From IMG/VR virus record IMGVR_UViG_3300045136_000892: a stretch of DNA of 64,000 bases; one strand, given 5' to 3'. Shown piece by piece: positions 1 through 12,782 of this stretch. The notes below the pieces were generated by a model. The model saw only the letters and a program-made list of their open reading frames with translations. It searched no databases and had not been told where the DNA came from. Each line of letters begins with the position of its first letter. Within the stretch, counting starts at the first letter, position 1. This DNA comes from a virus. A program made the position numbers and the translations under genes.

Positions 1-439
1 CGAGTAGCGCTTCTTTCTCGCGCAAATAGGCCTTGGCAAAAGCCTTATCGTGCTCCACGATGGACCCCGTGTTGTCGATCAGGTCGGCCAGCTTGATCGT
101 AGCGCCGTCCGGCGACGATCGGGCCAGATGTTCCCTATCCAGCCGCTTCCTCACCTCGCGGCTCCCATCCTCAAGCCGGGACACATCGGTCACCTCGATC
201 ACGAGCAGAGTCACCCTTTCGCCGAAGACGTCCTGAAGCTCGGCCGGCGTCACTTCTGTGTCCTCCAGCACGTCGTGCAGAGCGGCGGCAGCGATCACGG
301 CAGGGTAACTGATGTACTCGGCAACGATGGAGGCGACGTTCCGGCAGTGGTTGGCATACGGCTCGCCGGTGTATTTCCGCTTCTGCTGCCGATGGGCACA
401 CTTGGCGAAGCCGAGGGCCAGAGTCGGCAGGTCTGTCAT
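1..439 (-). CDS. HD-domain RelA/SpoT-type hydrolase (small alarmone hydrolase/Mesh1-like), runs off the left edge
   Basis: Not in the ORF track. Manual translation from ATG 439 (ATGA overlap with the rtcB stop): MTDLPTLALGFAKCAHRQQKRKYTGEPYANHC...AAALHDVLEDT...IKLADLIDN. Contains the AHxxQxRK, PY, HDxxED and KLAD motifs. Confidence 0.85.
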   Translation of the reverse strand, partial: MTDLPTLALGFAKCAHRQQKRKYTGEPYANHCRNVASIVAEYISYPAVIAAAALHDVLEDTEVTPAELQDVFGERVTLLVIEVTDVSRLEDGSREVRKRLDREHLARSSPDGATIKLADLIDNTGSIVEHDKAFAKAYLREKEALL

Positions 440-1677
440 CCCTTCACGCATAGCACCTGCTTCAGCTCATAAGCGATTTCCACCAGATCCTGCTGCGCCG
501 CCATGACCGCATCGATCGGCTTGTAGGCCGCCGGGCTCTCGTCCAGGACCCCTTCGTCCTTTCGGCACTCGACACCAGCAGTCGCCTTTGCGTGGTCTTC
601 GAGGCTGACGCGTTTGCTGGCCTCGCCCCGGCTCATCACCCGTCCGGCGCCGTGCGAGCAGCTGCAGAATGATTCCTGGTTGCCCTTGCCCCGCACGATG
701 AACGACCGGGCACCCATCGAGCCGGGGATGATCCCCAGATCGCCTTGGCGGGCACGGACGGCCCCCTTGCGGGTGAGCCAGACGTTCTTGCCATAGTGCT
801 GCTCGCGGGCCACGTAGTTGTGGTGGCAGTTCACCGCAACCTCGTCCGGGCGGCCGACCCGGCCGGGGAAGTGCCGCTCCAGCACCCTGAGCACCGCCCG
901 CATCATCACCTCGCGGTTCGCCCGGGCGAAGTCCTGCGCCCAGGTCAGGGCCTCGACGTAGTCGTCGAAAAGGTCTGACCCTTCCGGAATGTAGGCCAGG
1001 TCGGCGTCCGGCAGGTTGACGAACCAGCGGCGCATCTCCGCCTTGGCCCGCTCGATGAAGTAAATGCCGAACTTGTTCCCGATGCCCCGACTGCCGGAGT
1101 GGAGCATCACCCAGATAGCCCCGTCGGTGTCGAGGCACAGCTCGATGAAGTGGTTTCCGGTGCCGAGCGTGCCGAGGTGGTGCGGAGCGCGTGTTGCGGA
1201 CCGGGCCAGGTCGGGGTGCTTGGCGACGATGGCTTCGAGGCGTTCCTGAAGCGACGGCCCGAAGGCATCACTCTTGAACGCCCACGCGGATTCGTCCGGC
1301 AGATCGCCCCAAGCCCCACGATCGCTCGCCCCGCCGTTGTCGGTGCGACCGTGCGGCACCGCCGCCTCGATGTCGGAGCGGATCTCGAACAGGTTGTCGG
1401 GCAGGTCCTCAGCCCGAAGTCCGGTCCGAACGGCCATCATGCCGCAACCGATATCCACGCCCACAGCCGCCGGAATGATCGCCCCGACTGTGGGGATGAC
1501 CGAGCCGACGGTGGCCCCCATGCCCCAGTGGACGTCAGGCATGACCGCGACATGGTGATGGATGAAGGGCATCCGGGCGACGTTGCGGAGCTGGTCGACG
1601 GCTTTCTGGTCGAGAGGTACGCCTTCGGTCCAGCCGTAGATCGGAACGGCTTCCTTGCCGAGGAACTGCCTACTCAT
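436..1677 (-). CDS. rtcB: RtcB RNA 3'-phosphate/5'-OH ligase
   Basis: Motifs MPDVH, GVDIGCG, GTLGTGNHFIE, HSGSRG, HHN, GSMG, HGAGR, DESPAAYK. Start placed at ATG 1677, which overlaps the upstream stop. Confidence 0.96.
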   Translation of the reverse strand: MSRQFLGKEAVPIYGWTEGVPLDQKAVDQLRNVARMPFIHHHVAVMPDVHWGMGATVGSVIPTVGAIIPAAVGVDIGCGMMAVRTGLRAEDLPDNLFEIRSDIEAAVPHGRTDNGGASDRGAWGDLPDESAWAFKSDAFGPSLQERLEAIVAKHPDLARSATRAPHHLGTLGTGNHFIELCLDTDGAIWVMLHSGSRGIGNKFGIYFIERAKAEMRRWFVNLPDADLAYIPEGSDLFDDYVEALTWAQDFARANREVMMRAVLRVLERHFPGRVGRPDEVAVNCHHNYVAREQHYGKNVWLTRKGAVRARQGDLGIIPGSMGARSFIVRGKGNQESFCSCSHGAGRVMSRGEASKRVSLEDHAKATAGVECRKDEGVLDESPAAYKPIDAVMAAQQDLVEIAYELKQVLCVKG

Positions 1678-2968
1678 TGGCAGATTCAAACTTCACGATG
1701 TAGTCGAGGACCTTGTTCGACCAGCCGTCGATGTGGACCCACTGGCCGTAGCCGACGCCATTCTTGTTGCTCGCGACGTTGATCAGGTAGCCCTTCATCT
1801 GCGGTACCGGGTCGTGGCTCTGCTCGTCGGTGATGACGATCAGCCGATCCCGAGCCGGCAGCGAGCGGACCGCCTTACCCAGTTCCGTCCCGCCGTGCGG
1901 CTGAGCACCAGTGATCGCATCCCGAAGGGCAAACCCACGCCGTCCCGGCACCTCGACCAGGCTGTTGGAGAAGGTGAAGACCCGCAGGTCGGAAAACATC
2001 TCCCGGCCGATCATCGCCAGCGAGCAGGCCACATCCATCCGGTTCAGCTCGGACTTGGAGGACAGCGCGGAGTCCATCGATCCCGACACGTCCACCAGGA
2101 TGATCGTCTTGCCGCCCAGCTTCTCGCGGCCCGCGAAGCACTCGAAGAACTTGGCCTCCAGCTCAGGCTCGAACTGGGGGTTGTGCCGCGCCGAGGCGAT
2201 GAAGTTGATCGGTAGGAGTCGACCGGCCTTCACGTCGCGCAGGCCTTCGCGGATCGCCTGGTCCTCCACGCCCGCCTTCGTCATATTGCGGACGTTGCGG
2301 AGCATGGCGAGTCCGCCAAGCTTGCCCTCGGAGAGTAGACGAGACCACGAGGCCTTCTTGTCACCACCCTTCGACAGCTCGACCTCCCAGGTATCCGGAG
2401 TAGCCAGCTCGCCTTTGACGAGCTTGCGCCAAAGCTCGGCCTGTTCGAGATTGGCCGGCTTGGGGCGGGTGATCCGCAGGGCGTCGCGCAGTTTGACCGC
2501 CTTCTGACCTCCGTTGTACTTGGCTAGCTGGTACTCGTCGAACTTGCGGAAGGAGTCGCCCAGGCCGCGCTTGACCTGCTTGGCCAGCGGTTCGTCCTTG
2601 TTAGCCTTCCAATAGATTGACAGGAACTCGGTGATATCGTCCGGGCGGAGGATGACGCGGGGAAAGAGCCCCTTGGCCTGCGCACGGCCTTCCTTGGTCC
2701 GCATCAGCTCACGGGCGAGCAGGAGCGGGACGTGGCGGAGGCGCATGTCCTCCTTCGCCTGGACGGCGACGCGGGCGACATCCTCGGCAGGCACGAGCTT
2801 CACCAGCTCGGCGATCCGCTGGCCGATGGTCTGGCCGTCCTCGTAGAACTCCGACTCCCAGAGCAGGCAGGACATGACGGAGCGTTCGAGTTGAGCGAGC
2901 GCGTTGATACGGGCAGCCGGAGCGCCTTCGTGGGTGAACTCCTTGCGGATTCGGTTCAGGGTAGCCAT
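1670..2968 (-). CDS. rsr: Ro60/TROVE-domain RNA-binding protein with C-terminal vWA domain
   Basis: N-terminal THEGA, FDEYQLAKY, TWEVELS, AMLRN; vWA MIDAS DVSGSM, GGT and ITDEQ. Lies between rtcB and the Y RNAs. Confidence 0.93.
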   Translation of the reverse strand: MATLNRIRKEFTHEGAPAARINALAQLERSVMSCLLWESEFYEDGQTIGQRIAELVKLVPAEDVARVAVQAKEDMRLRHVPLLLARELMRTKEGRAQAKGLFPRVILRPDDITEFLSIYWKANKDEPLAKQVKRGLGDSFRKFDEYQLAKYNGGQKAVKLRDALRITRPKPANLEQAELWRKLVKGELATPDTWEVELSKGGDKKASWSRLLSEGKLGGLAMLRNVRNMTKAGVEDQAIREGLRDVKAGRLLPINFIASARHNPQFEPELEAKFFECFAGREKLGGKTIILVDVSGSMDSALSSKSELNRMDVACSLAMIGREMFSDLRVFTFSNSLVEVPGRRGFALRDAITGAQPHGGTELGKAVRSLPARDRLIVITDEQSHDPVPQMKGYLINVASNKNGVGYGQWVHIDGWSNKVLDYIVKFESANE

Positions 2969-2989
2969 GACACACCTACTTTCAATTGC

Positions 2990-3116
2990 GGGCGGGGAAG
3001 ATTCGGAGAGGGACGAAACTGAGCTACTGAACCTTGCGGCCCAGGCGGGGATCGAACCCGCGACCTCCGGCGAACCGGCGCTCTATCCAAAGTATCCCTG
3101 TCCTGCACCACCGCCC
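2990..3116 (-). ncRNA. Y RNA unit 4 (closest to rsr); tRNA-like module opened in the D-loop
   Basis: Terminal stem GGGCGGUGGUGCAGGACAGGGAUACUU...UCCCUCUCCGAAUCUUCCCCGCCC. Inside: GAGC, CCGG-UUCG-CCGG, AGGUC, T-arm GCGGG-UUCGAUC-CCCGC, acceptor stem closed by GCAA, UA-GCUC. Confidence 0.85.
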
Positions 3117-3128
3117 TGTTGCGGAAAC

Positions 3129-3258
3129 CGTGCGGGGAAGAAACGACAAAGGTACAAAGCGTCCTAACCATTAGACGACGGCCCCGAAGGACCGGCGGGA
3201 TTCGAACCCGCATCTCTCTCGTGGAAAGAGAAGTAACCCTTGCCTGCACCACCGCACG
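3129..3258 (-). ncRNA. Y RNA unit 3, YrlA-like; permuted tRNA with a UCC anticodon loop
   Basis: Same terminal scaffold. CUC-UUUCCAC-GAGAG, T-arm GCGGG-UUCGAAU-CCCGC, acceptor CGGUCC-UUCG-GGGCCG, D-arm GUCU-AAUGGUUA-GGAC. Confidence 0.88.
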
Positions 3259-3269
3259 ATGGTTCAAGA

Positions 3270-3403
3270 GGAGGGGGAAGAGACGATAAAGGCACGTACG
3301 TGCTCTACCAGCTGAGCTACCGGCAGGTCGATCTGCCGGACGGGACTCGAACCCGCGACCACGCGATTACAAGTCGAAGTAACCCTTATCTGCACCACCC
3401 TCC
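3270..3403 (-). ncRNA. Y RNA unit 2, YrlA-like; permuted tRNA with a UGU anticodon loop
   Basis: Same scaffold. CGA-CUUGUAA-UCGCG, UGGUC, T-arm GCGGG-UUCGAGU-CCCGU, acceptor CCGGCAG-AUCGAC-CUGCCGG, D-arm GCUC-AGCUGGUA-GAGC. Confidence 0.88.
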
Positions 3404-3412
3404 AAAACTTAA

Positions 3413-3474
3413 GAGCCGGGAAGATCGTCGAAGGTTCGCTTTCCAATAAGTAGCCCTCGACTGCACCACGGCCC
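3413..3474 (-). ncRNA. Y RNA unit 1; minimal scaffold with no tRNA module
   Basis: GCCGUGGUGCAGUCGAGGGCUACUU-short loop-CCUUCGACGAUCUUCCCGGC. Shares the GUGGUGCAG, AGGGNUACUU and UCUUCCC motifs with the other three units. Confidence 0.75.
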
Positions 3475-3484
3475 GATGCAAATC

Positions 3485-3513
3485 ACCCTAGTGCAGGTTG
3501 CACGCAAGCGCAA
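3485..3513 (-). promoter_or_regulatory. Putative sigma70 promoter of the Y RNA-rsr-rtcB operon, with a palindrome in the spacer
   Basis: Minus strand TTGCGC-17 nt-TAGGGT; spacer contains GTGCA-ACC-TGCAC (3491-3503). Confidence 0.5.
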
Positions 3514-3625
3514 GCATTATTTTAATCGTCATTCAACCTCTTTGATTCCCGGCTATTGCGGCCTCGCGGGGGCTTGTTAAAATGGGCAATCTCGCGGCTG
3601 ATTCCCGCTACCTGACGAGGTCGCC

Positions 3626-4066
3626 ATGGCCCGCAAGAAGACGGCAGCCCCGAAGCACGTCGAGCCCGAGGAAGAGGGCCCGGAAGGCGAGGAGGGAGGC
3701 GGCCAGGAAGGGCACGGCATCATCTCGAAGGCGGAGGCAATCCGCCGAATGCTGGCCGAGGGTATCGAGAATCCCTCTGTGGCTTCGGCTGAGATCAGGA
3801 CCCGATTCGGCATCGACGTAACGCCGCAGCATTTCAGCGCGACCAAGAGCCAGATGAAGAGCCGAGAGGCCGCCAAGAAGGGCAAGCCAGGCCGGAAACC
3901 GAAGGCAGCCCCTAGCCAAGCCGTCGAGGGCTACCTGGCTCCGCCGCCGAAGCCATCAACGGACGGCGAGCAACCTGACCTGCTGGCGGCCATCGAAGCG
4001 ATGAAGCCGCTGGTGGAGGCGCTGGGTAAGGAGAAGGCCCATCGCATCGTCGATCTGCTGGGGTGA
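3626..4066 (+). CDS. Hypothetical basic protein, possibly DNA-binding
   Basis: RBS GAGG; Lys-rich; SKAEAIRRML helix and GKPGRKPK AT-hook-like segment; divergent from the Y RNA operon. Confidence 0.65.
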   Translation: MARKKTAAPKHVEPEEEGPEGEEGGGQEGHGIISKAEAIRRMLAEGIENPSVASAEIRTRFGIDVTPQHFSATKSQMKSREAAKKGKPGRKPKAAPSQAVEGYLAPPPKPSTDGEQPDLLAAIEAMKPLVEALGKEKAHRIVDLLG

Positions 4067-4159
4067 GCGACGATACAATCTGTGGAAGAGAACATCTGAC
4101 GGCTGATCCGACCGTCATCCTCAGGCTACTCGCAGCTAGGCCGCGGCCGGAGTCTATCG

Positions 4160-4717
4160 ATGCCAGAAGCACCACACGTACCAACCCTGACCGACCTCGC
4201 GCTCCTCCCTCGGTGGGCGAAGGTTCTGTTCCTTTCGAGGTGTGCCGCCAGGGTCATCCCTCTCATCCGTACTCAATGGCCCAGTTTGTCGGCCGGGGAC
4301 TTGATGGTCATCGGGATGGCTGGGGCGAACGCGGATGCGTCGGCGCGGCTCGGACGAGAGGTTCACGTTGGGGCGGACCCGCTACCACGGTTGATGGAAC
4401 TTATCGAGAGTGCCGAGCAGCAGGACAATATGGCTGGCTATGGCTTGGCGGTATGCGCTACAGCAGCTGGGCTGGCACAGGCCGAATCCGCCGAAAAGGC
4501 CACCAACCTTGCTGGTGCAGCACTTGAGCACATGATTCAGTCTTATGCTGTCAGCGGGCTAAACGAGGGCGCCGTTGTCGGGTCTGTATGGCTCGATTAC
4601 AAGGCCCTCCGGGACGCCGCACAAGCGGGCAGTTGGAACAACGAAACCCGGATGACCGACGGCATCCTCGGCGAGCTTTGGCCGCATGGCACCCCTCCGG
4701 GCTGGCCCACCGAATAA
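4160..4717 (+). CDS. Hypothetical protein
   Basis: 185-aa ORF with GGAG RBS and protein-like composition. Confidence 0.55.
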   Translation: MPEAPHVPTLTDLALLPRWAKVLFLSRCAARVIPLIRTQWPSLSAGDLMVIGMAGANADASARLGREVHVGADPLPRLMELIESAEQQDNMAGYGLAVCATAAGLAQAESAEKATNLAGAALEHMIQSYAVSGLNEGAVVGSVWLDYKALRDAAQAGSWNNETRMTDGILGELWPHGTPPGWPTE

Positions 4718-4790
4718 AGCTAAAATCGACCTGGTGTACATCGCGTACGTTTCGCTGGTCATGAGCCTGCGAACGGCGTATCCTCGCCGC

Positions 4791-5426
4791 ATGAAACGCC
4801 TTACCCTCATCCTCCTCATCCTCGCGGTCTGGCCGTTCCCGACCGTCGCCGCCGATTTCGCGGCCTGGGTCATTGGCGTCTCCGACGGCGACACGCTGAC
4901 TGTCCTGACCGCCGAGAAGCGGCAGGTCAAGGTTCGGCTGCACGGCATCGACGCACCGGAGACGGGGCAGGACTTTGGCACGCGCGCGAAGCAGGCGGCT
5001 TCGGAGCTGGCCTTCGGCAAGCAGGTAACCGTCCGGGAGGTGGACAGGGACCGCTATGGGCGCACCGTGGCCGAGGTAATCCTGCCGGATGGCCGTTCGC
5101 TCAATCGCGAGATGGTGCGCGGCGGGATGGCTTGGTGGCACAGGACCTATGCGCCGGCCGACCGCGAGCTGGCCTCGCTGGAAGCCGAGGCTAAGGCCAC
5201 GAAGCGCGGCCTGTGGGCCCAGCCCGGGGCCATCCCGCCGTGGGAATGGAGGAGTAGCAAGGGCGACCCCGTCACGGCGGAGGTCGTGGGGAACCGCCGG
5301 AGCATGATCTACCACGCACTGAACTGCCGGGGCGCAACCGCAATCAGCGAGAAGAACCGGGTGGCGTTCAAGACTGCGGCCGAGGCCGAGGCTGCGGGCT
5401 ACCGGAAGGCGAGGGATTGCAAATAG
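4791..5426 (+). CDS. Secreted thermonuclease (SNase-like) with C-terminal Ada-like metal-binding domain
   Basis: Signal peptide; DGDT, VRLHGIDAPE, DRYGR, LNREMVRGG, GLWA; C-terminal GNRRSMIYHALNC...AEAAGYRKARDC. Confidence 0.9.
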   Translation: MKRLTLILLILAVWPFPTVAADFAAWVIGVSDGDTLTVLTAEKRQVKVRLHGIDAPETGQDFGTRAKQAASELAFGKQVTVREVDRDRYGRTVAEVILPDGRSLNREMVRGGMAWWHRTYAPADRELASLEAEAKATKRGLWAQPGAIPPWEWRSSKGDPVTAEVVGNRRSMIYHALNCRGATAISEKNRVAFKTAAEAEAAGYRKARDCK

Positions 5427-5557
5427 CCGCCTGCTCGCTGGCGTTGCTGGTCGCCCCGCTCCGGCTCAGAATAGGTTGCCAATTTCCATGCGCAACTATT
5501 GCCTTGCGCGTTCCCGGGCCTACAATTCCTGTGGACATCAGTTCACAGGAGGCCGCC

Positions 5558-5824
5558 ATGAAGCCACGCCATGCGAACGTCCTCAAGGATATGGGCTGCA
5601 CCGTTGAGCTCGAAGCTTTCCGTCGCGTGCTGGCGGAGGTGAAGGCCGAATTGTTCCCGGACATGACCGACGAGGAGCTCTGCTACACCCGCGATCAGGC
5701 GTCCGACTACTGCGCGGAGGTCAAGAAGCGGGTCGGTGCCCCCAAGCTCACCCGAGTCTTCATCCTCCGGTCGCTGGTCGGGCTCAGGAAGCAGCGGAAG
5801 CGAGCGGCCGGGGCTCGGGCTTGA
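5558..5824 (+). CDS. Hypothetical protein
   Basis: AGGAGG RBS before ATG 5558; 88 aa. Confidence 0.6.
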   Translation: MKPRHANVLKDMGCTVELEAFRRVLAEVKAELFPDMTDEELCYTRDQASDYCAEVKKRVGAPKLTRVFILRSLVGLRKQRKRAAGARA

Positions 5825-5892
5825 CCGCCATTATGCACCAACCTCACCACCCGCCCGGCTGAATTCCCCGCCCCGCCTGCTACCCTGCCCGC

Positions 5893-6306
5893 ATGGCCGA
5901 TCCGCACGTCATCACCGCCCTCGTGGAGAAGTACAGCCGTACTCTCGGCAGGCTCAGGGACTGCGAGCGGGAGGCGGAGACGCTGCGGGCGGACCTTTCC
6001 CACCTGGAGGCCGCAATCCGGCTGTTTCGGGCCGACTATGATTTCACGGTAATCCTCCCGCGCCGCCGGTACACCCCGCAGGCTAGCCGGACCCTGATCC
6101 GCCGGGCGCTTGACGTGCTGCGGGATGCCGATGAGCCGCTGACTAGCCGAGGGGTGGCGCTGGCCCTGACCGAGGGAGAGCCGGAGGAACTGGCCCTGCG
6201 GAAGCTGGCGAACAACCTGACCGGACGGCTCCGCAGGCAGCAGAAGGCAGGCGTGGTGCGGGCGCTGGAGGGCAGCGGGGCGGTCAGGTGGGAGTTGGTG
6301 CGTTGA
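5893..6306 (+). CDS. Coiled-coil plus winged-HTH passenger protein
   Basis: N-terminal coiled coil; C-terminal DVLRDADEPLTSRGVA...GVVR...VRWEL wHTH-like pattern. Confidence 0.6.
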   Translation: MADPHVITALVEKYSRTLGRLRDCEREAETLRADLSHLEAAIRLFRADYDFTVILPRRRYTPQASRTLIRRALDVLRDADEPLTSRGVALALTEGEPEELALRKLANNLTGRLRRQQKAGVVRALEGSGAVRWELVR

Positions 6307-6514
6307 CGGGGCGGGGTTGCGGCCAAGTGGGCGGGGGCGAGCGGCGGGGGAAGCTGTGCGCGTGGAAGTGGGTGGAGGGGGCGGGGAGAGGTATGGGGTG
6401 GGGAAGTGAAGGGCGGATATTTTTAAAATATTTCAACACCATAGCGAGTTTCTAGCGCTATGCTTAAAAATCAGTTGCTTAACATTCCGAAGACGACTAC
6501 TTTATCCTTAGGCG

Positions 6515-6604
6515 TGCCCGTGATCGGACTCGAACCAACATACCCGCGTGAGCTAAGGTGCCAGGATGACAGCCTGGTGCGTCTACCAATTCCGCCACAC
6601 GGGC
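6515..6604 (-). tRNA. Atypical class II tRNA: Leu-type body with GUC (Asp) anticodon; CCA not encoded
   Basis: GCCCGUG acceptor/CACGGGC-A73; D-arm GGCGGAAUUGGUAGACGC; CCAGG-CU-GUC-AU-CCUGG; ~21-nt variable arm; GUUGG-UUCGAGU-CCGAU. Confidence 0.88.
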
Positions 6605-6707
6605 ACACCTAAGGATAAGTGCGTCCACACCGTAAAGCCGGGCATGGACGCGGTAGTCATCTAACTACGGAGGGGGCATATTCATGTTCCTTTTGTTGGT
6701 TGGACTC

Positions 6708-6753
6708 AGCAGCGGCCCGTTTGTTCATTGGTGATGAGGACGGGCCGTTTGCT
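6708..6753. other. Long hairpin (possible terminator or processing site) between the 134-aa ORF and the tRNA
   Basis: AGCAGCGGCCCGT...ACGGGCCGTTTGCT inverted repeat. Confidence 0.5.
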
Positions 6754-6763
6754 ATTCTGGGTG

Positions 6764-7168
6764 CTACACCAAAGACCAGATTTCGTCCTTGTAGCTAAAT
6801 ACGTCCTTTCGCTTCTGTAAGGCTCCTGAAACCACGTTTCCCGGCTTGGGTCCCGCGATAGCGATGCCCTGCTTCTCGGCAGCAAGCAGTATCTGCTTTG
6901 TGGCGCAGAAGTCGGCTTTCATAAGGTACAAGTACGCGATATTCTGGATTTGTTCTTCGACGGTTCGCGGTGTCGGGTTAGGCAGTCTGCCCTGCTCACC
7001 CCCTGCCGTTGCGCGCTGCGTGTAGAGCTTCACCAGTTCTTGCTCTTTGGATCGGCGCTCGTTGACGAGATGGCGGATTTCGCCCTGCTTTTTCTCGATC
7101 TGGGTGTCAATTCCGTGTATCTCGGCAATCAGTGCTTTTTCGGTGTCGGTGGAGGGGTCGGTAACCAT
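6764..7168 (-). CDS. Coiled-coil plus HARE/winged-HTH-like protein
   Basis: 134 aa; C-terminal KQILLAAEKQGIAIAGPKPGNVVSGALQKRKDVF...IWSL. Confidence 0.65.
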   Translation of the reverse strand: MVTDPSTDTEKALIAEIHGIDTQIEKKQGEIRHLVNERRSKEQELVKLYTQRATAGGEQGRLPNPTPRTVEEQIQNIAYLYLMKADFCATKQILLAAEKQGIAIAGPKPGNVVSGALQKRKDVFSYKDEIWSLV

Positions 7169-7200
7169 AACTCAAGGTGCTTATGTTGATAAGGTGCCTT

Positions 7201-7229
7201 ACCCTACCAATCGGTTGGCAACGTGTCAA
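7201..7229 (-). promoter_or_regulatory. Sigma70 promoter for the 134-aa ORF and possibly the tRNA
   Basis: TTGACA-17 nt-TAGGGT; AAGGTGC(C)TTA direct repeats near the predicted start site. Confidence 0.65.
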
Positions 7230-7304
7230 TCGTCAAGATTATTGAACTGCGTCGGGGACCCCTACCGCACCCACCGCTGGCTATCCCGACGCCTACGACC
7301 GGCG

Positions 7305-7333
7305 TTGACATTTCCCTCTTGTCTCTCTAGCCT
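7305..7333 (+). promoter_or_regulatory. Sigma70 promoter for the structured RNA and small peptide
   Basis: TTGACA-17 nt-TAGCCT. Confidence 0.7.
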
Positions 7334-7361
7334 CCCTCCCCGAGGCGGCATGTGTCGCCTT

Positions 7362-7500
7362 GGGGCTTGATAACCCCTTGGTTAGCGGTTTTGTACAGCC
7401 GTGATTTGTACTCCTCGCTTACGGCGGGGAGGCGTGCGCGCATGTTCAGGCGCGAGCTAAAGGCGCACGCGACCTTCTAACCAAGGTTTATCAACTCCCC
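7362..7500 (+). ncRNA. Structured multibranch RNA or 5' leader
   Basis: Closing stem GGGGCTTGATAACCCCTTGGTTAG/CTAACCAAGGTTTATCAACTCCCC encloses three hairpins: GTACA/TGTAC, CTCCTCGC/GCGGGGAG, GCGTGCGC/GCGCACGC. Confidence 0.65.
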
Positions 7501-7519
7501 GTCACCAGTGGGGATTGTT

Positions 7520-7624
7520 ATGGAAGATAGACACGGTAACCCGGCCATCGTGCTGGGCTTTGCGCTTATGGGCATTTCAGGCGGCCTGGCCGGGCTGCTG
7601 CTCGGATGGATCATCTGGGGGTAG
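7520..7624 (+). CDS. 34-aa single-TM peptide, type I toxin-like
   Basis: MEDRHGNPAIVLGFALMGISGGLAGLLLGWIIWG; GGGGA Shine-Dalgarno upstream. Below the ORF-track length cutoff. Confidence 0.6.
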   Translation: MEDRHGNPAIVLGFALMGISGGLAGLLLGWIIWG

Positions 7625-7631
7625 GTGCCGA

Positions 7632-8588
7632 TCAAGCCACCATCCACCTCTGGCTATACCCCTTCCACTGCCGCGACACAGGCGCAGCCAGGGCGGCGCC
7701 CACCAGCATCAGATACTGCTCGCCATTGCTCACCCGGCGGTTATCCTCGCGCCATGCCATCTCCGCGGCGTACAGGCCGAGATACGGCCCTGCAATGTGG
7801 TGATGCGTGCCGACCTCGGCCCGGCGCAGGCGGCTGAAATAGCTCTCTGCTTGATTGGTGCAGGCTCCGTTCTCGCTATAGGCCCATTTGTGGTTCACCC
7901 GCTTCGTCAGATATTTCGCGTGCAGCGCATCCCAAGCGGGCGCTTCATCGGCGTGGATCACCGAGCCAGCGGCCACATGCTTCTGCACCAGGGGCACGGC
8001 CTCATCCTCCGAGCGGAACACGAAGGGTAGCGTCCGGCCCTTGCGCTCGCGCATGACGACGACGACCTGGCGCTTGCCCGTTTGGTTTGCCGCCAGGCGG
8101 CGGTCCTTGCGGTCTTCCTTGCGGTTCTCCGGCTTCACATGCCCGCCGAAATAGCCGCCGTCCACCTCGACCTCCCCCGATAGCTGACACTCGGCACGCA
8201 TCGCCTCGCGGAGTTTGTGGGAGAGCACGAAGGCAGTCCGGTACTGGACGCCCAGGTCGCGGGATAGCTGCAGGGCGCTAATGCCCTTGGCCGCGTTCGT
8301 GAACAGGGCGATGGCCACCAGGATCTCGCGGATCGCCAGCTTGCGGGAGGCGAAGATCGTCCCCGAGGTCACGCTGAACTGGTGGCTGCATGCCTTGCAC
8401 TTCCAGAGCGCCCGCGTCGTGTAGGTGTAGAGGGCGGCGCAGCGGCAGCGGGGGCAGTAGGGCTTGCCGCCCGTATCGGCCCAGCGGATGGCCTGGAACG
8501 CCTCGGCGGCCTGCTCGTCCGTCATGGCCATGATCGCCCTCAGAGAGAGGGACCGGGCGGCGGAGGAGAGGAGGAAGTGCTGGGTCAT
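7632..8588 (-). CDS. IS1595-family DDE transposase
   Basis: Zn ribbon CPRC...CKAC, FSVTSGTIF, HTH, GEVEVDGGYFGG, IHADE, VNH, TNQAESYF, LYAAEMAWRE. Confidence 0.95.
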   Translation of the reverse strand: MTQHFLLSSAARSLSLRAIMAMTDEQAAEAFQAIRWADTGGKPYCPRCRCAALYTYTTRALWKCKACSHQFSVTSGTIFASRKLAIREILVAIALFTNAAKGISALQLSRDLGVQYRTAFVLSHKLREAMRAECQLSGEVEVDGGYFGGHVKPENRKEDRKDRRLAANQTGKRQVVVVMRERKGRTLPFVFRSEDEAVPLVQKHVAAGSVIHADEAPAWDALHAKYLTKRVNHKWAYSENGACTNQAESYFSRLRRAEVGTHHHIAGPYLGLYAAEMAWREDNRRVSNGEQYLMLVGAALAAPVSRQWKGYSQRWMVA

Positions 8589-8701
8589 GGTTCGCGCTAT
8601 CGGTTACTTGTTGTCATTTATAACAACACAGGCGGCGCGACTTGTCAAAGGAAAAGTTGTCGTTTATGCTAACTGAATCGCATTAGCGGCAAGGAATCGG
8701 C

Positions 8702-8944
8702 ATGGAGAAGGACGAGAAACGGCAGGATTTGGAGGAGCGGCTGGGACGTTACCTCAAGGCGATGCTGAAAGCGGGCGGGCTCACCTACGAGGAACTGGCC
8801 GAAGGGCTGAAGGCCCACGGCTTCCCGGAGGAGACCAAGGCATCCATCGCCAGCAAGCTGGCCCGAGGATCTTTCTCGGCAGCGTTCCTGGTGGCGGCGC
8901 TGCGGGTGGCGAAGCGGGAGGGGATCAGGTTGGAGGATGTGTAG
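8702..8944 (+). CDS. DUF6471-like HTH regulator, divergent from the transposase
   Basis: LKAMLKAGGLTYEELAEGL...ETKASIASKLARGSFSAAFL; GTTGTC(A/G)TTTAT repeats in the intergenic region. Confidence 0.8.
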   Translation: MEKDEKRQDLEERLGRYLKAMLKAGGLTYEELAEGLKAHGFPEETKASIASKLARGSFSAAFLVAALRVAKREGIRLEDV

Positions 8945-9019
8945 TTTTCGCTGTTTAAAGAAGGGTAATGATGGTAGAATAATCCTCGAACATCATAATG
9001 ACTATCGAGAAGCTTCGCT

Positions 9020-9208
9020 ATGAATGAGCGCGACATGTTGATTAGCATATTCTATGCTATCTGCGGACTAGCAGAGAAGCTGACCGGCGAGCAAATGGTC
9101 GTAACTATGACCAGCGAATCCGGCCAGCGTTTCTCTATGCATGGGCAGGGCGTGACTTGGGAACGTACTTCTCGGGAGGCGACTGAAGACCCGCCCTGTC
9201 AGTCGTAG
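9020..9208 (+). CDS. Small hypothetical protein
   Basis: 62-aa ORF overlapping the 3' end of the convergent ORF. Confidence 0.35.
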   Translation: MNERDMLISIFYAICGLAEKLTGEQMVVTMTSESGQRFSMHGQGVTWERTSREATEDPPCQS

Positions 9209-9506
9209 CCAAAGTGGACCAGGCTGATTGCAACTCGTCCTTCGCGGTGTGGACGTTCTTAAGTGCCTGATGAATCTGATCCGCAGTCGGCCAACGGTTT
9301 GCGTCTGGGCTTGGCCGCGAATCCGAGCGAATCATAACAGCTTCGGCTGGCATTATGACGCTGCAATTGCTGAATGAGAATCGTAGCGGCGATTCAAACA
9401 ACATCATCGCCACACCCCGAATCATGCCGATCATTTCGTCGCAGCGGGCGGTAGCTTCTTCGTACTTTACTCTGGCATCCAGATAGCGTCTTACAGGGTC
9501 GGTCAT
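9135..9506 (-). CDS. Hypothetical protein
   Basis: 123 aa with AGGAG RBS. Confidence 0.6.
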   Translation of the reverse strand: MTDPVRRYLDARVKYEEATARCDEMIGMIRGVAMMLFESPLRFSFSNCSVIMPAEAVMIRSDSRPSPDANRWPTADQIHQALKNVHTAKDELQSAWSTLATTDRAGLQSPPEKYVPKSRPAHA

Positions 9507-9556
9507 CAGTATGTACTCCTATGGCGTTTTGCGCAGCCACAGCAGCAGACGACCGC

Positions 9557-9672
9557 TTGACGGAAAGACAGGCAGAATGGTATCATTCGCCTTGTTATTG
9601 CTGATTCCACAAGCGGTCGTCCAAAACTACTGTGGATCTGAATGAAGGCCGGGTTCCTCCCGGCCTTTTTTC
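9557..9672 (+). ncRNA. Putative ~80-nt antisense sRNA with its own promoter and intrinsic terminator
   Basis: TTGACG-18 nt-(TG)TATCAT promoter; terminator AAGGCCGGG-TTCCT-CCCGGCCTT-TTTT; no ORF between them. Confidence 0.5.
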
Positions 9673-9727
9673 ATTTCAGACAAGCGATATGATATAAGTT
9701 TTTCATGCCATTGAATAGATTTAAAAA

Positions 9728-12571
9728 TTAGCTTTCCGTCCGCACGCAATCCCCTGTCACGAACTCCCCCGCGTCCTTTACGCACGGAGGAAGCCCCGGC
9801 CCGACGATGGGCTTCATTGAAGCCTCGCGGTCGGCCAGCTCGCCGTTCAGCTTCAGCAGGAATGCCAGCGGATCGTCCTTCGCCCTCATGCCGTAGGCGG
9901 CACGCACGGCAGCGTCCAGCGCGTCCTGGGCATCCCGCAGCGGGTTCTTGCCCGGCGTCTCCAGCGTGCGGTACAGCTCACGCAGGCTCCAGTTATTCTC
10001 GGCCATGACCTTGCGGCGCAACTGCCGCAGGGCAACGGCGGCCTCGGCCACATTCTTCGCCTGCGGCAGCGTCGGCTTCTGCGGCCAAGGGAAGGTGTCG
10101 AACACCGTGTCGCTCGTGTAACGGAAGTCGCCCTTGAGCGTGGAGCAGCGGGCGACGAACCACGCCCAGTGGATGCCCGATTGCAGGATGCCGAACGAGT
10201 AGTCGTCGGGGAGGGTGAAGAGCTGCAAAGCGTCGTTCGGATGGATGTCTGAAGCGATGAACTCGAAGATGGGGCGCTTCGTCACGCGGGCGCAGGCGAT
10301 GTAGCGGGGTAGCCCGGCCAGGCGTTCCAGCATCTCCGGGCGTCCACGCCAATATTTCCACCAGCGTTGGTAGTGGCTCTGGCGCGGCCCGTTGGGCTTG
10401 CCCGTCTCCTCCCGTTCCTTGTCGGCGTTCGCCTTCATCGTCGGCAGGACATGCGTTTCCACATGCCGGAAGGCCAGCCCATGCCGCTTCGCCGCCAGAA
10501 TGTCGGGGCAGTGGTTCAGGTCAATGGCGTAGCGTGAGGGCTCCCCCGTGGATAGAAGGTCATCCCCGGTGAGATAGGGATGAACGACCGGCTTTGCTGC
10601 CGCGTCCTTCATCATTTCCTGGGCCTCTGCCGGACTCAACAGGAATCCCTCGTGACCGTGCGTCTGCCCCTGGTAGCAGGCCCCGGAGTCCATGTTCGCC
10701 CGCAGGCGCTGCGCCCCCGTCACGTCAAATCCAGCCGAGAGGGCTGGGCCAATCTCATCTACCTCCACAGCCTCCCATGGGCTATGCCGATCATCCCCGA
10801 GCTGGGTGAACAGCTTTTTCTTGCCCGGGGCATCGCCCTTAACCCAGTTGGCGATTGAGACGTGCACCACCGCGTCTCCTGACCAGACCTGGGATGAGAC
10901 CGCCTCAGTGATCGTGCCGCCGTTGCCGACGATGTAATCCAGGCCGCCCTCCCGGCTGTAGTTCTGGCGGATGGTATTCGTGCCGACCAGCCCGGCATGG
11001 CCCCCGGCTGGCAGCTCGTCGTGGGCCTTGCGGAACCAGTACACGCAGTAATCCGCACGCCCCGGCACATCCGGGTAGGCCTCCCGCAGCCGGTTCAGGT
11101 AGGCCGGGCCGTATTCCTGCTGCATCTTGTTCTTGGACTGGAAGGGCGGGTTGCCCACGATGGCGTCCGCCTCGGGCCACTCGCAGAACAGGGCGTCGTC
11201 GGCTTTGATGTTGTCGTCCAGGTTGTCCAGAGGCAGGGCCGCGTCGAACTCGATGGGCAGGTCCAACTGCTCCGCGTCGATCCACGCATGGCTCTCGTCG
11301 ATCGCCAGTTCCTTGGCGATCATCAGCGTGACCTTCGCCAGCTCCACGGCGAACTCTTCCTTGTCGATGCCGAAGAACTGCTTGGTACTGACCAGGGAGC
11401 GTGTGCCAACGGCGGCTTGCGCCCGCCTGCCGAACTCGGCATGGATCTTTGCCATGAGGCTGAGTTCCAGCCGTTTCAGCTCCCGGAAGGCGACATAGAG
11501 GAAATTCCCACTGCCGCAGGCTGGGTCGAGGACCCGGAAGCCCCGCAGTTCTTCCAGCAGGGCGCGGAGGTCCTTTAGCGTCTTGGCCCCCTCGATACGC
11601 TCACGCCAGGGGCGGACGATGGTCGGCAGCACGACCTTCTGGATGTCCGCCTCGGAGGTGAAATGCGCCCCGTAGGCATGTCGCCGCTCCTTGCCCATGC
11701 TGCTCTGGAAGAGCGTGCCGAAGATGGGCGGCTGAACCTTGCTCCAGTTCTCCTCGGCGGCCTTCAGCAGCAGGTCGATCTCCTCCGGCACCAGCTCCAG
11801 CGGGTTGACCGTCTGGAAGATGCCGCCGTTGAAATAGCGCACGCCCTTGAAGCGCCCGCCCTTGGCCGGGGCCTGCGCGTTCATCTGCCGAAACAGCCCG
11901 CCGATTAGGTCGTAGGTGCTTTCGCCCCGCTTGCAATCATCCAGCAACTCGCTGAACAGCCCGCGCGGCAGCAGTTCCGCATCCTCGGAGAACATCGCCA
12001 CCACGCATTGCAGGGCGAACCGCTGGGCCTGCTCCCGGTCCTCGCCCCGCGCCACCAGCGAGTTGAACACACCCGCCACGTTCGCAGCCGCTGCCCGCGT
12101 GACGTCCACGCGGTTGTTGCCGAACTGCGGCTTCTTCTCGACGGGGAAGAGGAAGTTGAAGGCCGTGTACCGATGGGGCAACTCTTCGAGGGCCACCGTG
12201 TCCACAGGATCGTTGAGCTGGGAGTCGAAGTCGTAGATCCAGAATTCGTCGAAGTTGCAGAGCACCACATACTTGGGGCGCTGGGGGACGAGCTGGAGCC
12301 AGTATTCAAACGCCTGGGTATAGTGCTTCTGGAGCTTCTCGCCCCGTTTCTTCATCTCCATGAGCAGGCGGGGCCGCCAGAGGAGGTCGGCGAACTTCGT
12401 GCTCTTGGCTCCCTTCACCCGGAATTCCAGCGTGGCTCCGGCTTCCTTGTAGCCGCCATGCCCGAACGCCTTGAACAGGCGGTCGCAGAAGACCTGAGCC
12501 TCGCCCTTCTCGTCGCCTTTCAGCGTGCGGGCGTAGTCGATAAACTCGCGGATCGGCTCGGCGGGATTCAT
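9728..12571 (-). CDS. Type IIL (MmeI-like) fused restriction endonuclease-N6A methyltransferase
   Basis: N-terminal ADLL...EMK nuclease motif; GAHFTS, DPACGSGNF, GNPPF; C-terminal target-recognition region FGILQSGIHWAW...RYTSDTVFDTFPWP. Confidence 0.93.
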   Translation of the reverse strand: MNPAEPIREFIDYARTLKGDEKGEAQVFCDRLFKAFGHGGYKEAGATLEFRVKGAKSTKFADLLWRPRLLMEMKKRGEKLQKHYTQAFEYWLQLVPQRPKYVVLCNFDEFWIYDFDSQLNDPVDTVALEELPHRYTAFNFLFPVEKKPQFGNNRVDVTRAAAANVAGVFNSLVARGEDREQAQRFALQCVVAMFSEDAELLPRGLFSELLDDCKRGESTYDLIGGLFRQMNAQAPAKGGRFKGVRYFNGGIFQTVNPLELVPEEIDLLLKAAEENWSKVQPPIFGTLFQSSMGKERRHAYGAHFTSEADIQKVVLPTIVRPWRERIEGAKTLKDLRALLEELRGFRVLDPACGSGNFLYVAFRELKRLELSLMAKIHAEFGRRAQAAVGTRSLVSTKQFFGIDKEEFAVELAKVTLMIAKELAIDESHAWIDAEQLDLPIEFDAALPLDNLDDNIKADDALFCEWPEADAIVGNPPFQSKNKMQQEYGPAYLNRLREAYPDVPGRADYCVYWFRKAHDELPAGGHAGLVGTNTIRQNYSREGGLDYIVGNGGTITEAVSSQVWSGDAVVHVSIANWVKGDAPGKKKLFTQLGDDRHSPWEAVEVDEIGPALSAGFDVTGAQRLRANMDSGACYQGQTHGHEGFLLSPAEAQEMMKDAAAKPVVHPYLTGDDLLSTGEPSRYAIDLNHCPDILAAKRHGLAFRHVETHVLPTMKANADKEREETGKPNGPRQSHYQRWWKYWRGRPEMLERLAGLPRYIACARVTKRPIFEFIASDIHPNDALQLFTLPDDYSFGILQSGIHWAWFVARCSTLKGDFRYTSDTVFDTFPWPQKPTLPQAKNVAEAAVALRQLRRKVMAENNWSLRELYRTLETPGKNPLRDAQDALDAAVRAAYGMRAKDDPLAFLLKLNGELADREASMKPIVGPGLPPCVKDAGEFVTGDCVRTES

Positions 12572-12782
12572 TTGCTACCAAGGAGTTATGGCCAGAACAG
12601 CTTAGAGGAACGCGGCGGTTTGGCAAGCGATTCTACCGCCCCGCCATGCCCTCAACCACCCGCTGGTGAGGCTGGTGCATAATGGCGTGAGAATCACGAT
12701 GCCGCGTCTCTCCCCTGGTGATTATGCAAGCCTTGTTTTGGAGTCCGGGCCAGGCGCAGAACGCACTGGAGCTGTAGCCCGG

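What the first reader, a model, noticed from the sequence alone, without database searches (positions are those of the whole stretch)
3129..3403. Two Y RNAs contain complete permuted tRNAs opened at the same position (28/29) with intact anticodon loops UCC and UGU
Seen: joining the end of each D-arm to the start of its module rebuilds perfect 5-bp anticodon stems, CU|CUC with GAGAG and CG|CGA with UCGCG. The 7-nt loops are UU-UCC-AC (Gly) and CU-UGU-AA (Thr). Inference: retained anticodon loops suggest decoys or sensors for anticodon nucleases, which the co-encoded RtcB could re-seal. Alternatively, excision at the shared junction plus RtcB ligation and opening of the acceptor loop could yield a tRNA-shaped product, as for permuted tRNA genes in red algae. 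The acceptor stems lack clear Gly/Thr identity, which favours the decoy model.
Basis: partly seen in the sequence, partly recalled or inferred. Interest (0 to 1): 0.85.

Follow-up and report, generated by a model that had tools for sequence, protein, structure and literature searches.

The report
Y RNAs carrying true anticodon-arm mimics
Two small RNAs upstream of a Ro60 (rsr) gene are known-type tRNA look-alikes that also carry a complete anticodon arm, and this overlooked arm recurs in about 60% of such RNAs across many bacteria and phages, copying the anticodon loops of specific real tRNAs.

Summary
On the minus strand, Y RNAs U1 (3403-3270) and U2 (3257-3130) lie upstream of rsr-rtcB-HD. 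Each is a circularly permuted cloverleaf entered at tRNA position 28/29, with a 5-bp anticodon stem (3 bp in cis, 2 bp in trans). The 7-nt loops are CUUGUAA (UGU) and UUUCCAC (UCC).

It is not chance, and it is not special to this window. 53 of 88 modules beside rsr in at least 8 phyla have this exact architecture (shuffle null about 1). So do 86 of 143 in an independent viral and metagenome sample, and so do phage Y RNAs. Both helices covary. U33 and R37 are nearly invariant.

The triplet is not conserved, but it is not free either. It is U-rich whatever the genome GC, G37 tracks G36, and 103 of 139 loops equal real tRNA loop heptamers (flank-shuffle null exceeded in 0 of 5000).

These RNAs are YrlA-class Y RNAs. 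The hairpin is the stem-loop that Chen et al. 2014 called "V" (variable arm), and its position is that of an anticodon arm.

A tRNA-precursor role is unlikely. An rtcB gene is adjacent in only 4 of 43 loci. An anticodon-specific bait or decoy role is plausible but untested.

This scan had already noted other Y RNA wirings on other DNA.

The parts
3270..3403 (-). Y RNA U1: a YrlA-class Y RNA made of a terminal Ro60-type stem and a complete permuted tRNA module (anticodon UGU).
   Evidence: Rfam YrlA partial hit of 43.1 bits. R1 model score 88.9 bits. Sequence read. ARAGORN calls tRNA-Thr(tgt) after re-permutation.
3364..3376 (-). U1 anticodon-arm hairpin: CGA / CUUGUAA / UCG (tRNA positions 29-41), with the triplet UGU at 3371-3369.
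   Evidence: Read. The pairs covary in homologs. The loop heptamer is identical to real tRNA-Thr(UGU) loops in the reference set.
3362..3363 (-). U1 positions 42-43 (CG). They pair in trans with 27-28 (CG at 3300-3299) and complete the 5-bp anticodon stem.
   Evidence: Read. Pair 28:42 covaries as AU/GC/CG/UA.
3299..3300 (-). U1 positions 27-28 (CG), which follow the D arm and A26. The Y stem leaves the module after this point.
3302..3356 (-). U1 T arm, 7-bp acceptor stem closed by the loop AUCGAC, U8-A9, and D arm.
3130..3257 (-). Y RNA U2: a YrlA-class Y RNA with a complete permuted tRNA module (anticodon UCC).
   Evidence: Rfam YrlA partial hit of 27.1 bits. R1 model score 72.1 bits. ARAGORN calls tRNA-Gly(tcc) after re-permutation.
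3218..3230 (-). U2 anticodon-arm hairpin: CUC / UUUCCAC / GAG, with the triplet UCC at 3225-3223. It competes with a slipped 8-bp hairpin that has a CAC triloop.
   Evidence: The ortholog in L006 keeps the 3-bp/7-nt form with GUA. The ortholog in L004 lacks the hairpin.
3216..3217 (-). U2 positions 42-43 (AG), pairing in trans with CU at 3159-3158.
3158..3159 (-). U2 positions 27-28 (CU), which follow the D arm and G26.
1670..2968 (-). rsr (Ro60 ortholog; TROVE plus vWA domains), directly downstream of the Y RNA array on the same strand.
   Evidence: Pfam TROVE, E = 4.7e-18.
436..1689 (-). rtcB RNA ligase, overlapping the end of rsr.
   Evidence: Pfam RtcB, E = 1.7e-132.
2..451 (-). HD_4 (RelA/SpoT-type hydrolase fold) gene. 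It runs off the window.
   Evidence: Pfam HD_4, E = 1.2e-16.

Best explanation
What it is (shown):
- U1 and U2 are YrlA-class Y RNAs.
- A terminal stem, presumably the Ro60 (Rsr) handle, carries a circularly permuted tRNA module.
- Unlike the crystallised Salmonella YrlA, the module also contains a full anticodon arm. Three base pairs and a 7-nt loop are made in cis. They stack on two pairs (27-28 with 42-43) made with the strand that leaves the D arm. The Y stem therefore branches off at a nick between positions 28 and 29.
- This arm is the "V" stem-loop of Chen et al. 2014. Its position is that of an anticodon arm, not a variable arm.
- It is a family-wide, selected feature. Its loop copies the anticodon loop of particular real tRNAs, including the position-37 rule, while the triplet itself switches between relatives.

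How it works (inferred):
- The Ro60-bound RNA presents an anticodon-specific tRNA look-alike to factors that read anticodon loops. The most likely such factors are tRNA-directed nucleases or modifiers used in phage-host or inter-bacterial conflict.
- It would act as a competitive bait or damage sensor.
- In this window, RtcB and an HD hydrolase are co-expressed to mend tRNA-type damage.
- It is not a tRNA gene.

My odds: about 0.9 for the structural part and about 0.4 for the bait mechanism.
For: Architecture:
- Sequence read. Re-permuted modules are called tRNA by ARAGORN in 52 of 53 cases.

Recurrence:
- 53 of 88 rsr-linked modules have the exact architecture, against a null of 1.07.
- 86 of 143 modules in a pattern sample not chosen for the hairpin have it, against a null of 5.9. 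The trans pairs are intact in 70 of 73, against a null of 33.
- Phage loci have it too.

Covariation:
- Pair 31:39: AU 31, CG 31, UA 17, GC 9.
- Pair 28:42: GC 41, AU 30, CG 23, UA 8.

Loop signature:
- U33 in 51 of 53 and 84 of 86 loops. R37 in 51 of 53 and 84 of 86 loops.

Anticodon-specific mimicry:
- G37 goes with G36 (Fisher p = 3e-7).
- 103 of 139 loops are identical to real tRNA loop heptamers. The flank-shuffle null is 19.2 +/- 2.6 against 32 unique matches observed, reached in 0 of 5000 shuffles.
- The triplet is 50-59% U at locus GC of 0.60 or 0.42, whereas the acceptor loop tracks GC.

Turnover:
- Triplet divergence is 0.43 per site against 0.065 for the rest of the module in close pairs.

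Context:
- Defence island: type IIG restriction-modification enzyme, DpdA, a GajB-like helicase and an IS1595 transposase.
- Phage and tRNA-array neighbourhoods.

Literature:
- Hughes et al. 2020 raised a nuclease-competitor role for YrlA (PMC7790460).
- The commonest triplets (GUU, UGU, UUU) are the targets of the PARIS AriB nuclease (PMC12409363).
Against: - No expression, cleavage, modification or binding data exist for these RNAs.
- Triplet turnover is not clearly faster than silent sites. The rsr 4-fold divergence averages 0.33 for the same pairs, and in metagenome pairs the triplet is only about twice as divergent as the rest. Diversifying selection is therefore not shown.
- The excess of GUU, UGU and UUU is explained by per-position composition, mainly U-richness.
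- The U2 loop differs from real Gly(UCC) loops at positions 32 and 38. Its ortholog in the closest genome lacks the arm, so the arm is dispensable there.
- rtcB is rarely adjacent and no other partner gene is conserved.
- Nearest-neighbour energies favour other folds.
- A Toprim nuclease such as AriB would probably leave ends that RtcB cannot join. This is from my own knowledge and was not checked.
Confidence: 0.45

Rival explanations
1. Structural tether only. The anticodon arm merely completes the L-shape, so that a housekeeping tRNA-binding or single-strand-binding partner of the Ro60 particle docks on it. [quoted passage not shown] Under this reading the triplet has no meaning of its own.
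For: - Y RNAs are known to tether Rsr to PNPase through the effector domain (papers read).
- No conserved neighbour other than rsr.
- The triplet changes at about the silent-site rate.
- The arm is absent from about 40% of modules and from the L004 ortholog of U2.
- A U-rich loop would suit KH/S1 binding.
Against: - The flanks change with the triplet as in real tRNAs: G36 goes with G37, and heptamers match real loops far more often than after flank shuffling. A meaningless triplet would not do this.
- Triplet composition is held U-rich against genome GC.
Confidence: 0.3
2. Precursor of a working tRNA. One route is a split tRNA that keeps the Ro60 handle after RNase P opens the acceptor loop and CCA is present or added. 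The other route is excision at 28/29 followed by RtcB ligation.
For: - The cloverleaf is complete.
- 7-bp acceptor stems predominate.
- 13 of 59 modules encode CCA at positions 74-76 of the acceptor loop.
- M. smegmatis YrlA is cut by RNase P and receives CCA in vivo (PMC4201824). Its published probe sequence contains the hairpin CCA/CUUCUAA/UGG.
- rtcB is adjacent in this window.
Against: - Ser, Leu, Tyr and Sec triplets sit on bodies with 4-5 nt variable loops.
- A34 triplets that bacteria do not use occur (AUU, ACU, AAG).
- One conserved body carries many different triplets.
- The junction has no bulge-helix-bulge motif, and bacteria are not known to have the splicing endonuclease (Wang et al. 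2018).
- rtcB is adjacent in only 4 of 43 loci.
- U2 has a 6-bp acceptor stem with a UUCG loop.
- A helix branching from the anticodon stem should clash with the ribosome. This is an inference.
Confidence: 0.06
3. The hairpin is a true variable arm (the published "V" reading), a neutral spacer hairpin, or a chance pairing in these two RNAs.
For: - Chen et al. 2014 placed V at the variable-arm position.
- The cis stem has only 3 bp.
- Minimum-free-energy folds differ from the family fold.
Against: - A 4-5 nt variable loop still separates pairs 42-43 from the T stem.
- The hairpin lies distal to the covarying pairs 27-28:42-43, with no linker on its 3' side.
- Loop length and the U33/R37 signature are conserved far above chance.
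Confidence: 0.04

Closest known systems
YrlA (Y RNA-like A; Rfam RF02553; Chen et al. 2014, PMC4201824; structure in Wang et al. 2018, bioRxiv 10.1101/312249)
   Same: - Encoded just upstream of rsr on the same strand.
- The terminal stem is formed by the 5' and 3' ends.
- The order is T arm, closed acceptor-like stem, D arm, with the tRNA invariant bases.
- Several paralogs occur per locus.
[quoted passage not shown]
- The M. smegmatis YrlA probe sequence printed in that paper contains CCA/CUUCUAA/UGG.
   Different: - The published reading calls that stem-loop a variable arm.
- The structure paper states that YrlA lacks the anticodon loop, which is true for Salmonella.
- Here the hairpin sits at the anticodon position and has a 7-nt loop with U33/R37 and tRNA-specific flanks.
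- U1 and U2 score below the Rfam gathering threshold (43 and 27 bits against 69) and match only model positions 24-84.
D. radiodurans Yrn1
   Same: Chen et al. 2014 model a possible anticodon arm with a 5-bp stem in this Ro60-bound Y RNA.
   Different: - The Yrn1 loop has 6 nt.
- The arm lies between the T-like and D-like elements, which is a different wiring.
- The D arm is doubtful.
- The authors infer an independent origin.
Circularly permuted tRNA genes of red algae and one archaeon (Soma et al. 2007, as cited)
   Same: The acceptor stem is closed by a loop. The two ends of the transcript meet in the anticodon arm. A full cloverleaf appears after re-permutation.
   Different: - Those genes carry a bulge-helix-bulge junction that is cut by a splicing endonuclease.
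- They yield essential, identity-correct tRNAs.
- Here the junction is a Ro60-type stem, identity elements are missing, and the triplet varies on a fixed body.
Phage-encoded tRNAs that neutralise tRNA-cleaving defences (T5 tRNAs against PARIS AriB; PMC12409363, PMC11464382)
   Same: - Carried on mobile elements or phages, often within tRNA arrays.
- The anticodons concerned (Lys UUU, Thr UGU, Asn GUU) are among the commonest Y RNA triplets.
   Different: Those are working tRNAs that replace cleaved host tRNAs. The Y RNAs cannot decode and are tied to Ro60.
b7a-tRNA (band-7-associated tRNA-like RNA; Burroughs and Aravind 2016, as described)
   Same: A predicted tRNA look-alike that keeps an anticodon arm. 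It is linked to RtcB-type repair loci and is sometimes swapped with YrlA next to Rsr.
   Different: It has ordinary tRNA wiring with open ends and no Ro60-type stem. I could not read the original paper.

Membership tests
YrlA-class bacterial Y RNA | Encoded within about 4 kb of a Ro60 (TROVE) gene, on the same strand. | tested here: met
   U1 and U2 lie 160-435 nt upstream of rsr (1670-2968) on the minus strand.
YrlA-class bacterial Y RNA | tRNA-like domain in the order T arm, closed acceptor-like stem-loop, D arm, with tRNA invariant bases. | tested here: met
   Rfam alignment to model positions 24-84. Parse. Covariation.
YrlA-class bacterial Y RNA | Rfam RF02553 gathering score of 69 bits. 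| tested here: not met
   The scores are 43.1 and 27.1 bits, both partial matches. None of 20 related loci reached the threshold either. I therefore file these RNAs as a divergent branch of the class on anatomy, not on the Rfam score.
YrlA-class bacterial Y RNA | 5' motif GNCGAAN0-1G in the Ro60-binding stem. | tested here: inconclusive
   U1 and U2 have GGUGCAGR at that place, with no literal CGAA. Relatives such as L020 do have GGCGAAG.
YrlA-class bacterial Y RNA | Bound by Rsr in vivo. | not testable with these tools
   Needs immunoprecipitation.
Circularly permuted tRNA gene | Complete cloverleaf after joining the ends. | tested here: met
   ARAGORN calls Thr(tgt) and Gly(tcc). 52 of 53 family members are called.
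Circularly permuted tRNA gene | Bulge-helix-bulge motif at the processing junction. | tested here: not met
   By reading, the junction has a 2-nt and a 3-nt linker, a 2-bp AC/GU helix, and then the Y stem. There is no 3-4-3 motif.
Circularly permuted tRNA gene | Identity elements agree with the anticodon, as expected of a usable tRNA. | tested here: not met
   Class II and Sec triplets sit on short variable loops, A34 triplets occur, and one body carries many triplets. U1 starts with C1:G72 and U2:A71.
Canonical tRNA gene (RF00005) | Detected as a tRNA on the native sequence. | tested here: not met
   ARAGORN and Rfam find only the tRNA at 6514-6604 in window 1-12000.
Anticodon-nuclease decoy or bait (functional class, not a curated family) | The loop matches that of a specific target tRNA. 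| tested here: met
   The U1 loop is identical to real Thr(UGU) loops. Family-wide, heptamers match real loops above the shuffle null. The U2 loop differs from real Gly loops at positions 32 and 38.
Anticodon-nuclease decoy or bait (functional class, not a curated family) | Is bound or cut by such a nuclease and protects real tRNAs. | not testable with these tools
   Needs biochemistry and genetics.

The most novel reading that the evidence does not exclude
Most Ro60-linked YrlA RNAs of bacteria and phages are anticodon-specific tRNA baits. Each displays the exact anticodon loop of a chosen tRNA on a Ro60 handle (Asn GUU most often, then Cys, Ile, Thr, Pro, Lys and Arg). It serves as a decoy or tripwire for anticodon-loop nucleases or modifiers. 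Lineages would retarget it by switching the triplet together with position 37. That would give bacterial Ro60 particles a defined role in tRNA-centred conflict.
Probability: 0.3. Interest if true: 0.85.

Novelty: new variant of a known kind. Interest (0 to 1): 0.62.

Why it matters
**Open question.** Bacterial Ro60 and Y RNAs have no agreed function outside Deinococcus. The field's structural picture comes from Salmonella YrlA and says the tRNA mimic lacks an anticodon loop.

**What this changes.**
- Most relatives, apparently including the experimentally studied M. smegmatis YrlA, carry a faithful, tRNA-specific anticodon arm.
- This changes what partners to look for: enzymes that read anticodon loops, not only the tRNA elbow.
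- It gives direct, cheap tests: cleavage by known anticodon nucleases, t6A/m1G/Q mapping, and triplet swaps.

**Practical point.** Genome annotators sometimes call pieces of these RNAs as tRNA genes.

Tried and rejected
1. **Rfam at gathering threshold.** No YrlA call in the window or in 20 related loci, so I built my own covariance model.
2. **Minimum-free-energy folding.** It mis-folds the conserved T arm of U1 and prefers a slipped hairpin in U2. I rejected it as an arbiter.
3. **Positive selection on the triplet.** Divergence of 0.43 per site looked striking against 0.065 for the module. But rsr 4-fold sites diverge 0.08-0.55 in the same pairs, and metagenome pairs give only 0.167 against 0.074. 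I do not claim it.
4. **Enrichment of PARIS, PrrC or colicin targets.** This is explained by per-position composition. I keep it only as a lead.
5. **Alternative pairing.** I asked whether pairing of the conserved GGUUA with U36-A37-A38 plus the 3' strand causes the U36 excess. UAA is as frequent with AUAC/UUUC motifs (12 of 21) as with UUAC (21 of 32), so I rejected it.
6. **A conserved partner gene downstream of rsr.** None was found. rtcB is adjacent in only 4 of 43 loci with such Y RNAs.
7. **Sigma-70 promoter or terminators between units.** None was found.
8. **Papers I could not read.** These were Burroughs and Aravind 2016, Sim et al. 2020, Boccitto and Wolin 2019, and the supplements of Chen et al. 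2014. The statement that the anticodon-arm reading is not in print rests only on the papers I could search.

Full report
**1. What is in the window**

- The minus strand of 2990-3476 holds four tandem Y RNA-like units.
- They are followed directly by three genes:
  - rsr at 1670-2968 (TROVE domain, E = 4.7e-18)
  - rtcB at 436-1689 (E = 1.7e-132)
  - an HD_4 hydrolase at 2-451
- No sigma-70-type promoter or intrinsic terminator separates the units, so they are probably co-transcribed with rsr.
- Rfam gives only partial, sub-threshold YrlA matches to two units: 43.1 and 27.1 bits against a gathering score of 69, covering model positions 24-84.
- The record is an IMG/VR "provirus" of 143 kb. The Rsr protein is 93% identical to that of Tundrisphaera lichenicola, a member of the Isosphaeraceae.
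- The neighbours form a defence island:
  - a type IIG restriction-methylase (1414 bits)
  - DpdA (336 bits)
  - a GajB-like UvrD helicase
  - a Cas4-like nuclease
  - an IS1595 transposase

**2.

- In U1 (3403-3270) the strand runs in this order:
  - UUACUU, then the hairpin CGA/CUUGUAA/UCG
  - CG, then the variable loop UGGUC
  - a T arm
  - a 7-bp acceptor stem closed by AUCGAC
  - UA, a D arm, A26 and CG
  - the 3' strand of the Y stem
- U2 (3257-3130) has the same plan with these differences:
  - the hairpin is CUC/UUUCCAC/GAG
  - the trans pairs are AG with CU
  - the variable loop has 4 nt
  - the acceptor stem has 6 bp and a UUCG loop
- The two trans pairs (27-28 with 42-43) abut the 3' strand of the hairpin with no linker. 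Stacking therefore gives a 5-bp stem nicked at 28/29.
- After in-silico re-permutation ARAGORN calls tRNA-Thr(tgt) and tRNA-Gly(tcc). On the native DNA it calls nothing.
- Thermodynamic folding does not help.
  - The family fold lies 12.7 kcal/mol (U1) and 14.1 kcal/mol (U2) above the minimum-free-energy fold.
  - The minimum-free-energy fold breaks the conserved T arm of U1.
  - In U2 it prefers a slipped 8-bp hairpin.

**3. It is a conserved family feature, not chance**

- I fetched 80 rsr loci from genomes, built covariance model R1 and searched these loci.
- Of 88 Y RNA-type modules, 53 have exactly a 5-bp stem and a 7-nt loop.
  - 43 are split 3+2 (opened at 28/29) and 10 are split 2+3 (opened at 29/30).
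  - Shuffling the 15 nt concerned gives a mean of 1.07 and a maximum of 6 in 2000 trials.
- The carriers come from at least 8 phyla: Planctomycetota, Acidobacteriota, Pseudomonadota, Desulfobacterota, Bacillota, Bacteroidota, a Leptospiraceae MAG and a Paceibacterota MAG.
- An independent sample did not select for the hairpin.
  - It used a pattern anchored on GUUACUU and the T arm, with a free gap of 4-26 nt.
  - It gave 143 unique modules from viral and metagenome contigs.
  - 86 of them have the 3-bp/7-nt hairpin in register (null 5.9, maximum 15).
  - The trans pairs are intact in 70 of 73 (null 33).
- Both helices covary.
  - Pair 31:39: AU 31, CG 31, UA 17, GC 9.
  - Pair 28:42: GC 41, AU 30, CG 23, UA 8.
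- Phage loci carry the arm as well: Caulobacter phage CcrPW, Xanthomonas phage 10KY502B, a Rhizobium phage and Gordonia phage Neville.
- In the Xanthomonas phage record a "tRNA-Thr" is annotated across the 5' part of such a Y RNA.

**4. The loop is an anticodon loop in detail**

| Position | Genome set (53 loops) | Viral/metagenome set (86 loops) |
|---|---|---|
| 32 is a pyrimidine | 47 | 78 |
| 33 is U | 51 | 84 |
| 37 is a purine | 51 | 84 |

- Position 38 is mostly A or C in both sets.
- The triplet varies: 22 and 23 kinds in the two sets. GUU is commonest, at 12 of 53 and 26 of 86.
- The triplet is not free.
  - It is 50-59% U whether the locus GC is 0.60 or 0.42, while the acceptor loop follows genome GC.
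  - G37 appears almost only after G36, as in real tRNAs: 10 of 15 unique loops with G36 against 1 of 46 without (Fisher p = 3e-7).
  - 103 of 139 loops (32 of 61 unique heptamers) are identical to anticodon-loop heptamers of 309 real tRNAs found by ARAGORN in the same loci.
  - Shuffling the flanks among triplets gives 19.2 +/- 2.6 matches and reaches 32 in 0 of 5000 trials.
- The loop of U1 equals the usual Thr(UGU) loop. The loop of U2 differs from the Gly(UCC) loop CUUCCAA at positions 32 and 38.
- The stem does not follow the triplet: positions 29-30 are mostly CG whatever the triplet. Wholesale copying of tRNA arms is therefore unlikely.

**5. Turnover**

- Between close relatives the triplet differs at 0.43 per site. 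The rest of the module differs at 0.065 and the other loop positions at 0.075.
- Silent 4-fold sites of rsr in the same genome pairs differ by 0.08-0.55, with a mean of 0.33.
- Independent close pairs from metagenomes give 0.167 for the triplet against 0.074 for the rest.
- The triplet is therefore the least conserved part of the module. Faster-than-neutral change is not shown.
- The particular anticodons of this window are not conserved.
  - U1 has UGU here and in L004, but AUU and GUU in two Singulisphaera genomes.
  - U2 has UCC here and GUA in L006. Its clear ortholog in L004 has no hairpin and instead a 4-bp CCGG/CCGG continuation of the stem.

**6. What it is**

- By anatomy these are YrlA-class Y RNAs (PMC4201824).
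- The structure paper says that YrlA "lacks the anticodon loop".
- In the RNAs studied here a 4-5 nt variable loop still lies between position 43 and the T stem. The hairpin lies on the far side of the covarying pairs 27-28:42-43. Its position is therefore that of an anticodon arm.
- The M. smegmatis YrlA 5' probe printed in Chen et al. reads, as its complement, UUA-CCA-CUUCUAA-UGG-AA-UGGUC. This is the same hairpin with triplet UCU. I could not check its trans pairs.
- That RNA binds Rsr, is cut by RNase P and receives CCA in vivo.
- I found no paper that calls this element an anticodon arm.
- The finding fits the published ideas that YrlA derives from a permuted or dimeric tRNA.

**7. How it probably works**

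- A tRNA-precursor role is unlikely, for these reasons:
  - Ser, Leu, Tyr and Sec triplets sit on bodies with short variable loops.
  - A34 triplets occur.
  - One conserved body carries many different triplets.
  - There is no bulge-helix-bulge junction.
  - rtcB lies next to rsr in only 4 of 43 loci with such RNAs.
- No other neighbour is conserved, so the arm goes with Ro60 itself.
- Two readings remain.
  - Tether reading: the arm only completes the tRNA shape for a housekeeping partner such as PNPase.
  - Bait reading: the arm offers a specific tRNA's anticodon loop to loop-reading enzymes.
- The coupling of triplet and flanks, and the composition held against genome GC, favour the bait reading.
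- So do the settings: a defence island here, and phages and tRNA arrays elsewhere.
- So does the suggestion of Hughes et al. that YrlA may compete with an anticodon nuclease.
- In this window RtcB would complete a tRNA-damage kit, possibly together with the HD_4 hydrolase. This step is inference.
- I put the structural claim at about 0.9 and the bait mechanism at about 0.4.

**8. Verdict**

- The family is known and the hairpin itself is in print under another name.
- Three points appear to be new:
  - the reading of the hairpin as a faithful, tRNA-specific anticodon arm
  - its prevalence of about 60%
  - its triplet behaviour
- Earlier notes of this scan describe other Y RNA wirings on other DNA. 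One describes fast-changing anticodon loops in band-7-linked tRNA mimics. They served as leads only.

Noticed in passing
L064, L069 and several metagenome loci (for example the clade whose acceptor loop is UCCAU): In modules with an anticodon arm and an acceptor stem of at least 7 bp, 13 of 59 have CCA exactly at positions 74-76 of the acceptor loop, in loops of the form N-CCA-N. About 1 would be expected by chance. Several of them belong to one clade. This suggests that RNase P opening could leave a near-mature CCA end, as shown for M. smegmatis YrlA.
   Followed up: partly
L085:2810-2877 (Xanthomonas phage 10KY502B) and L086:2891-2975 (Microcystis phage Mvi-JY20): GenBank annotates a 68-nt "tRNA-Thr" that overlaps the 5' part of a Y RNA whose hairpin carries UGU (R1 hit at 2827-2911). 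The Microcystis phage has an 85-nt "tRNA-Leu" ending 25 nt before rsr that my model does not match. ARAGORN calls overlapped my Y RNA model hits 78 times across all loci.
   Followed up: partly
L030, L031, L046, L053, L054 and L057, upstream of rsr: Arrays of 5-13 tRNA-type T loops (tRNA gene clusters) lie directly upstream of the Y RNA and rsr genes. Such arrays are typical of phages and prophages.
   Followed up: no
L066:2017-2072: A type III hammerhead ribozyme (56.9 bits, above the gathering score) lies about 40 nt upstream of a Y RNA module in a Clostridiales MAG. It might define the 5' end of the Y RNA.
   Followed up: no
window 7632-23262: Defence and mobile island next to the operon: IS1595 transposase (7632-8588), type IIG restriction-methylase (9728-12571), Cas4-like PD-(D/E)XK nuclease (12783-13994), GajB-like UvrD helicase (14010-16394) and a DUF6884-DpdA fusion (16403-18373). 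An SNase plus Ada zinc-finger protein lies at 4686-5426.
   Followed up: partly
window 2990-3117 and 3410-3476: The other two units of the array differ. U3 has a T arm and a 7-bp acceptor stem, a CCGG/UUCG/CCGG hairpin and a degenerate D region (R1 score 36.6 bits). U0 is a 67-nt stem with no tRNA module, similar to YrlB.
   Followed up: no
window 6514-6604: A 90-nt tRNA with a long variable arm and the anticodon GUC (called Asp), scoring 53.7 bits. Earlier notes of the scan discuss it as a chimeric tRNA.
   Followed up: no
L119, L123, L133, L136, L139, L147 and L157 (human gut contigs): A repeated variant has CGU/UUGGG/ACG (a 5-nt loop) followed by ACCAUA in place of the 7-nt loop arm. Other variants carry 9-nt loops (L063, L066, L073) or 25-nt inserts that contain a second hairpin.
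   Followed up: no
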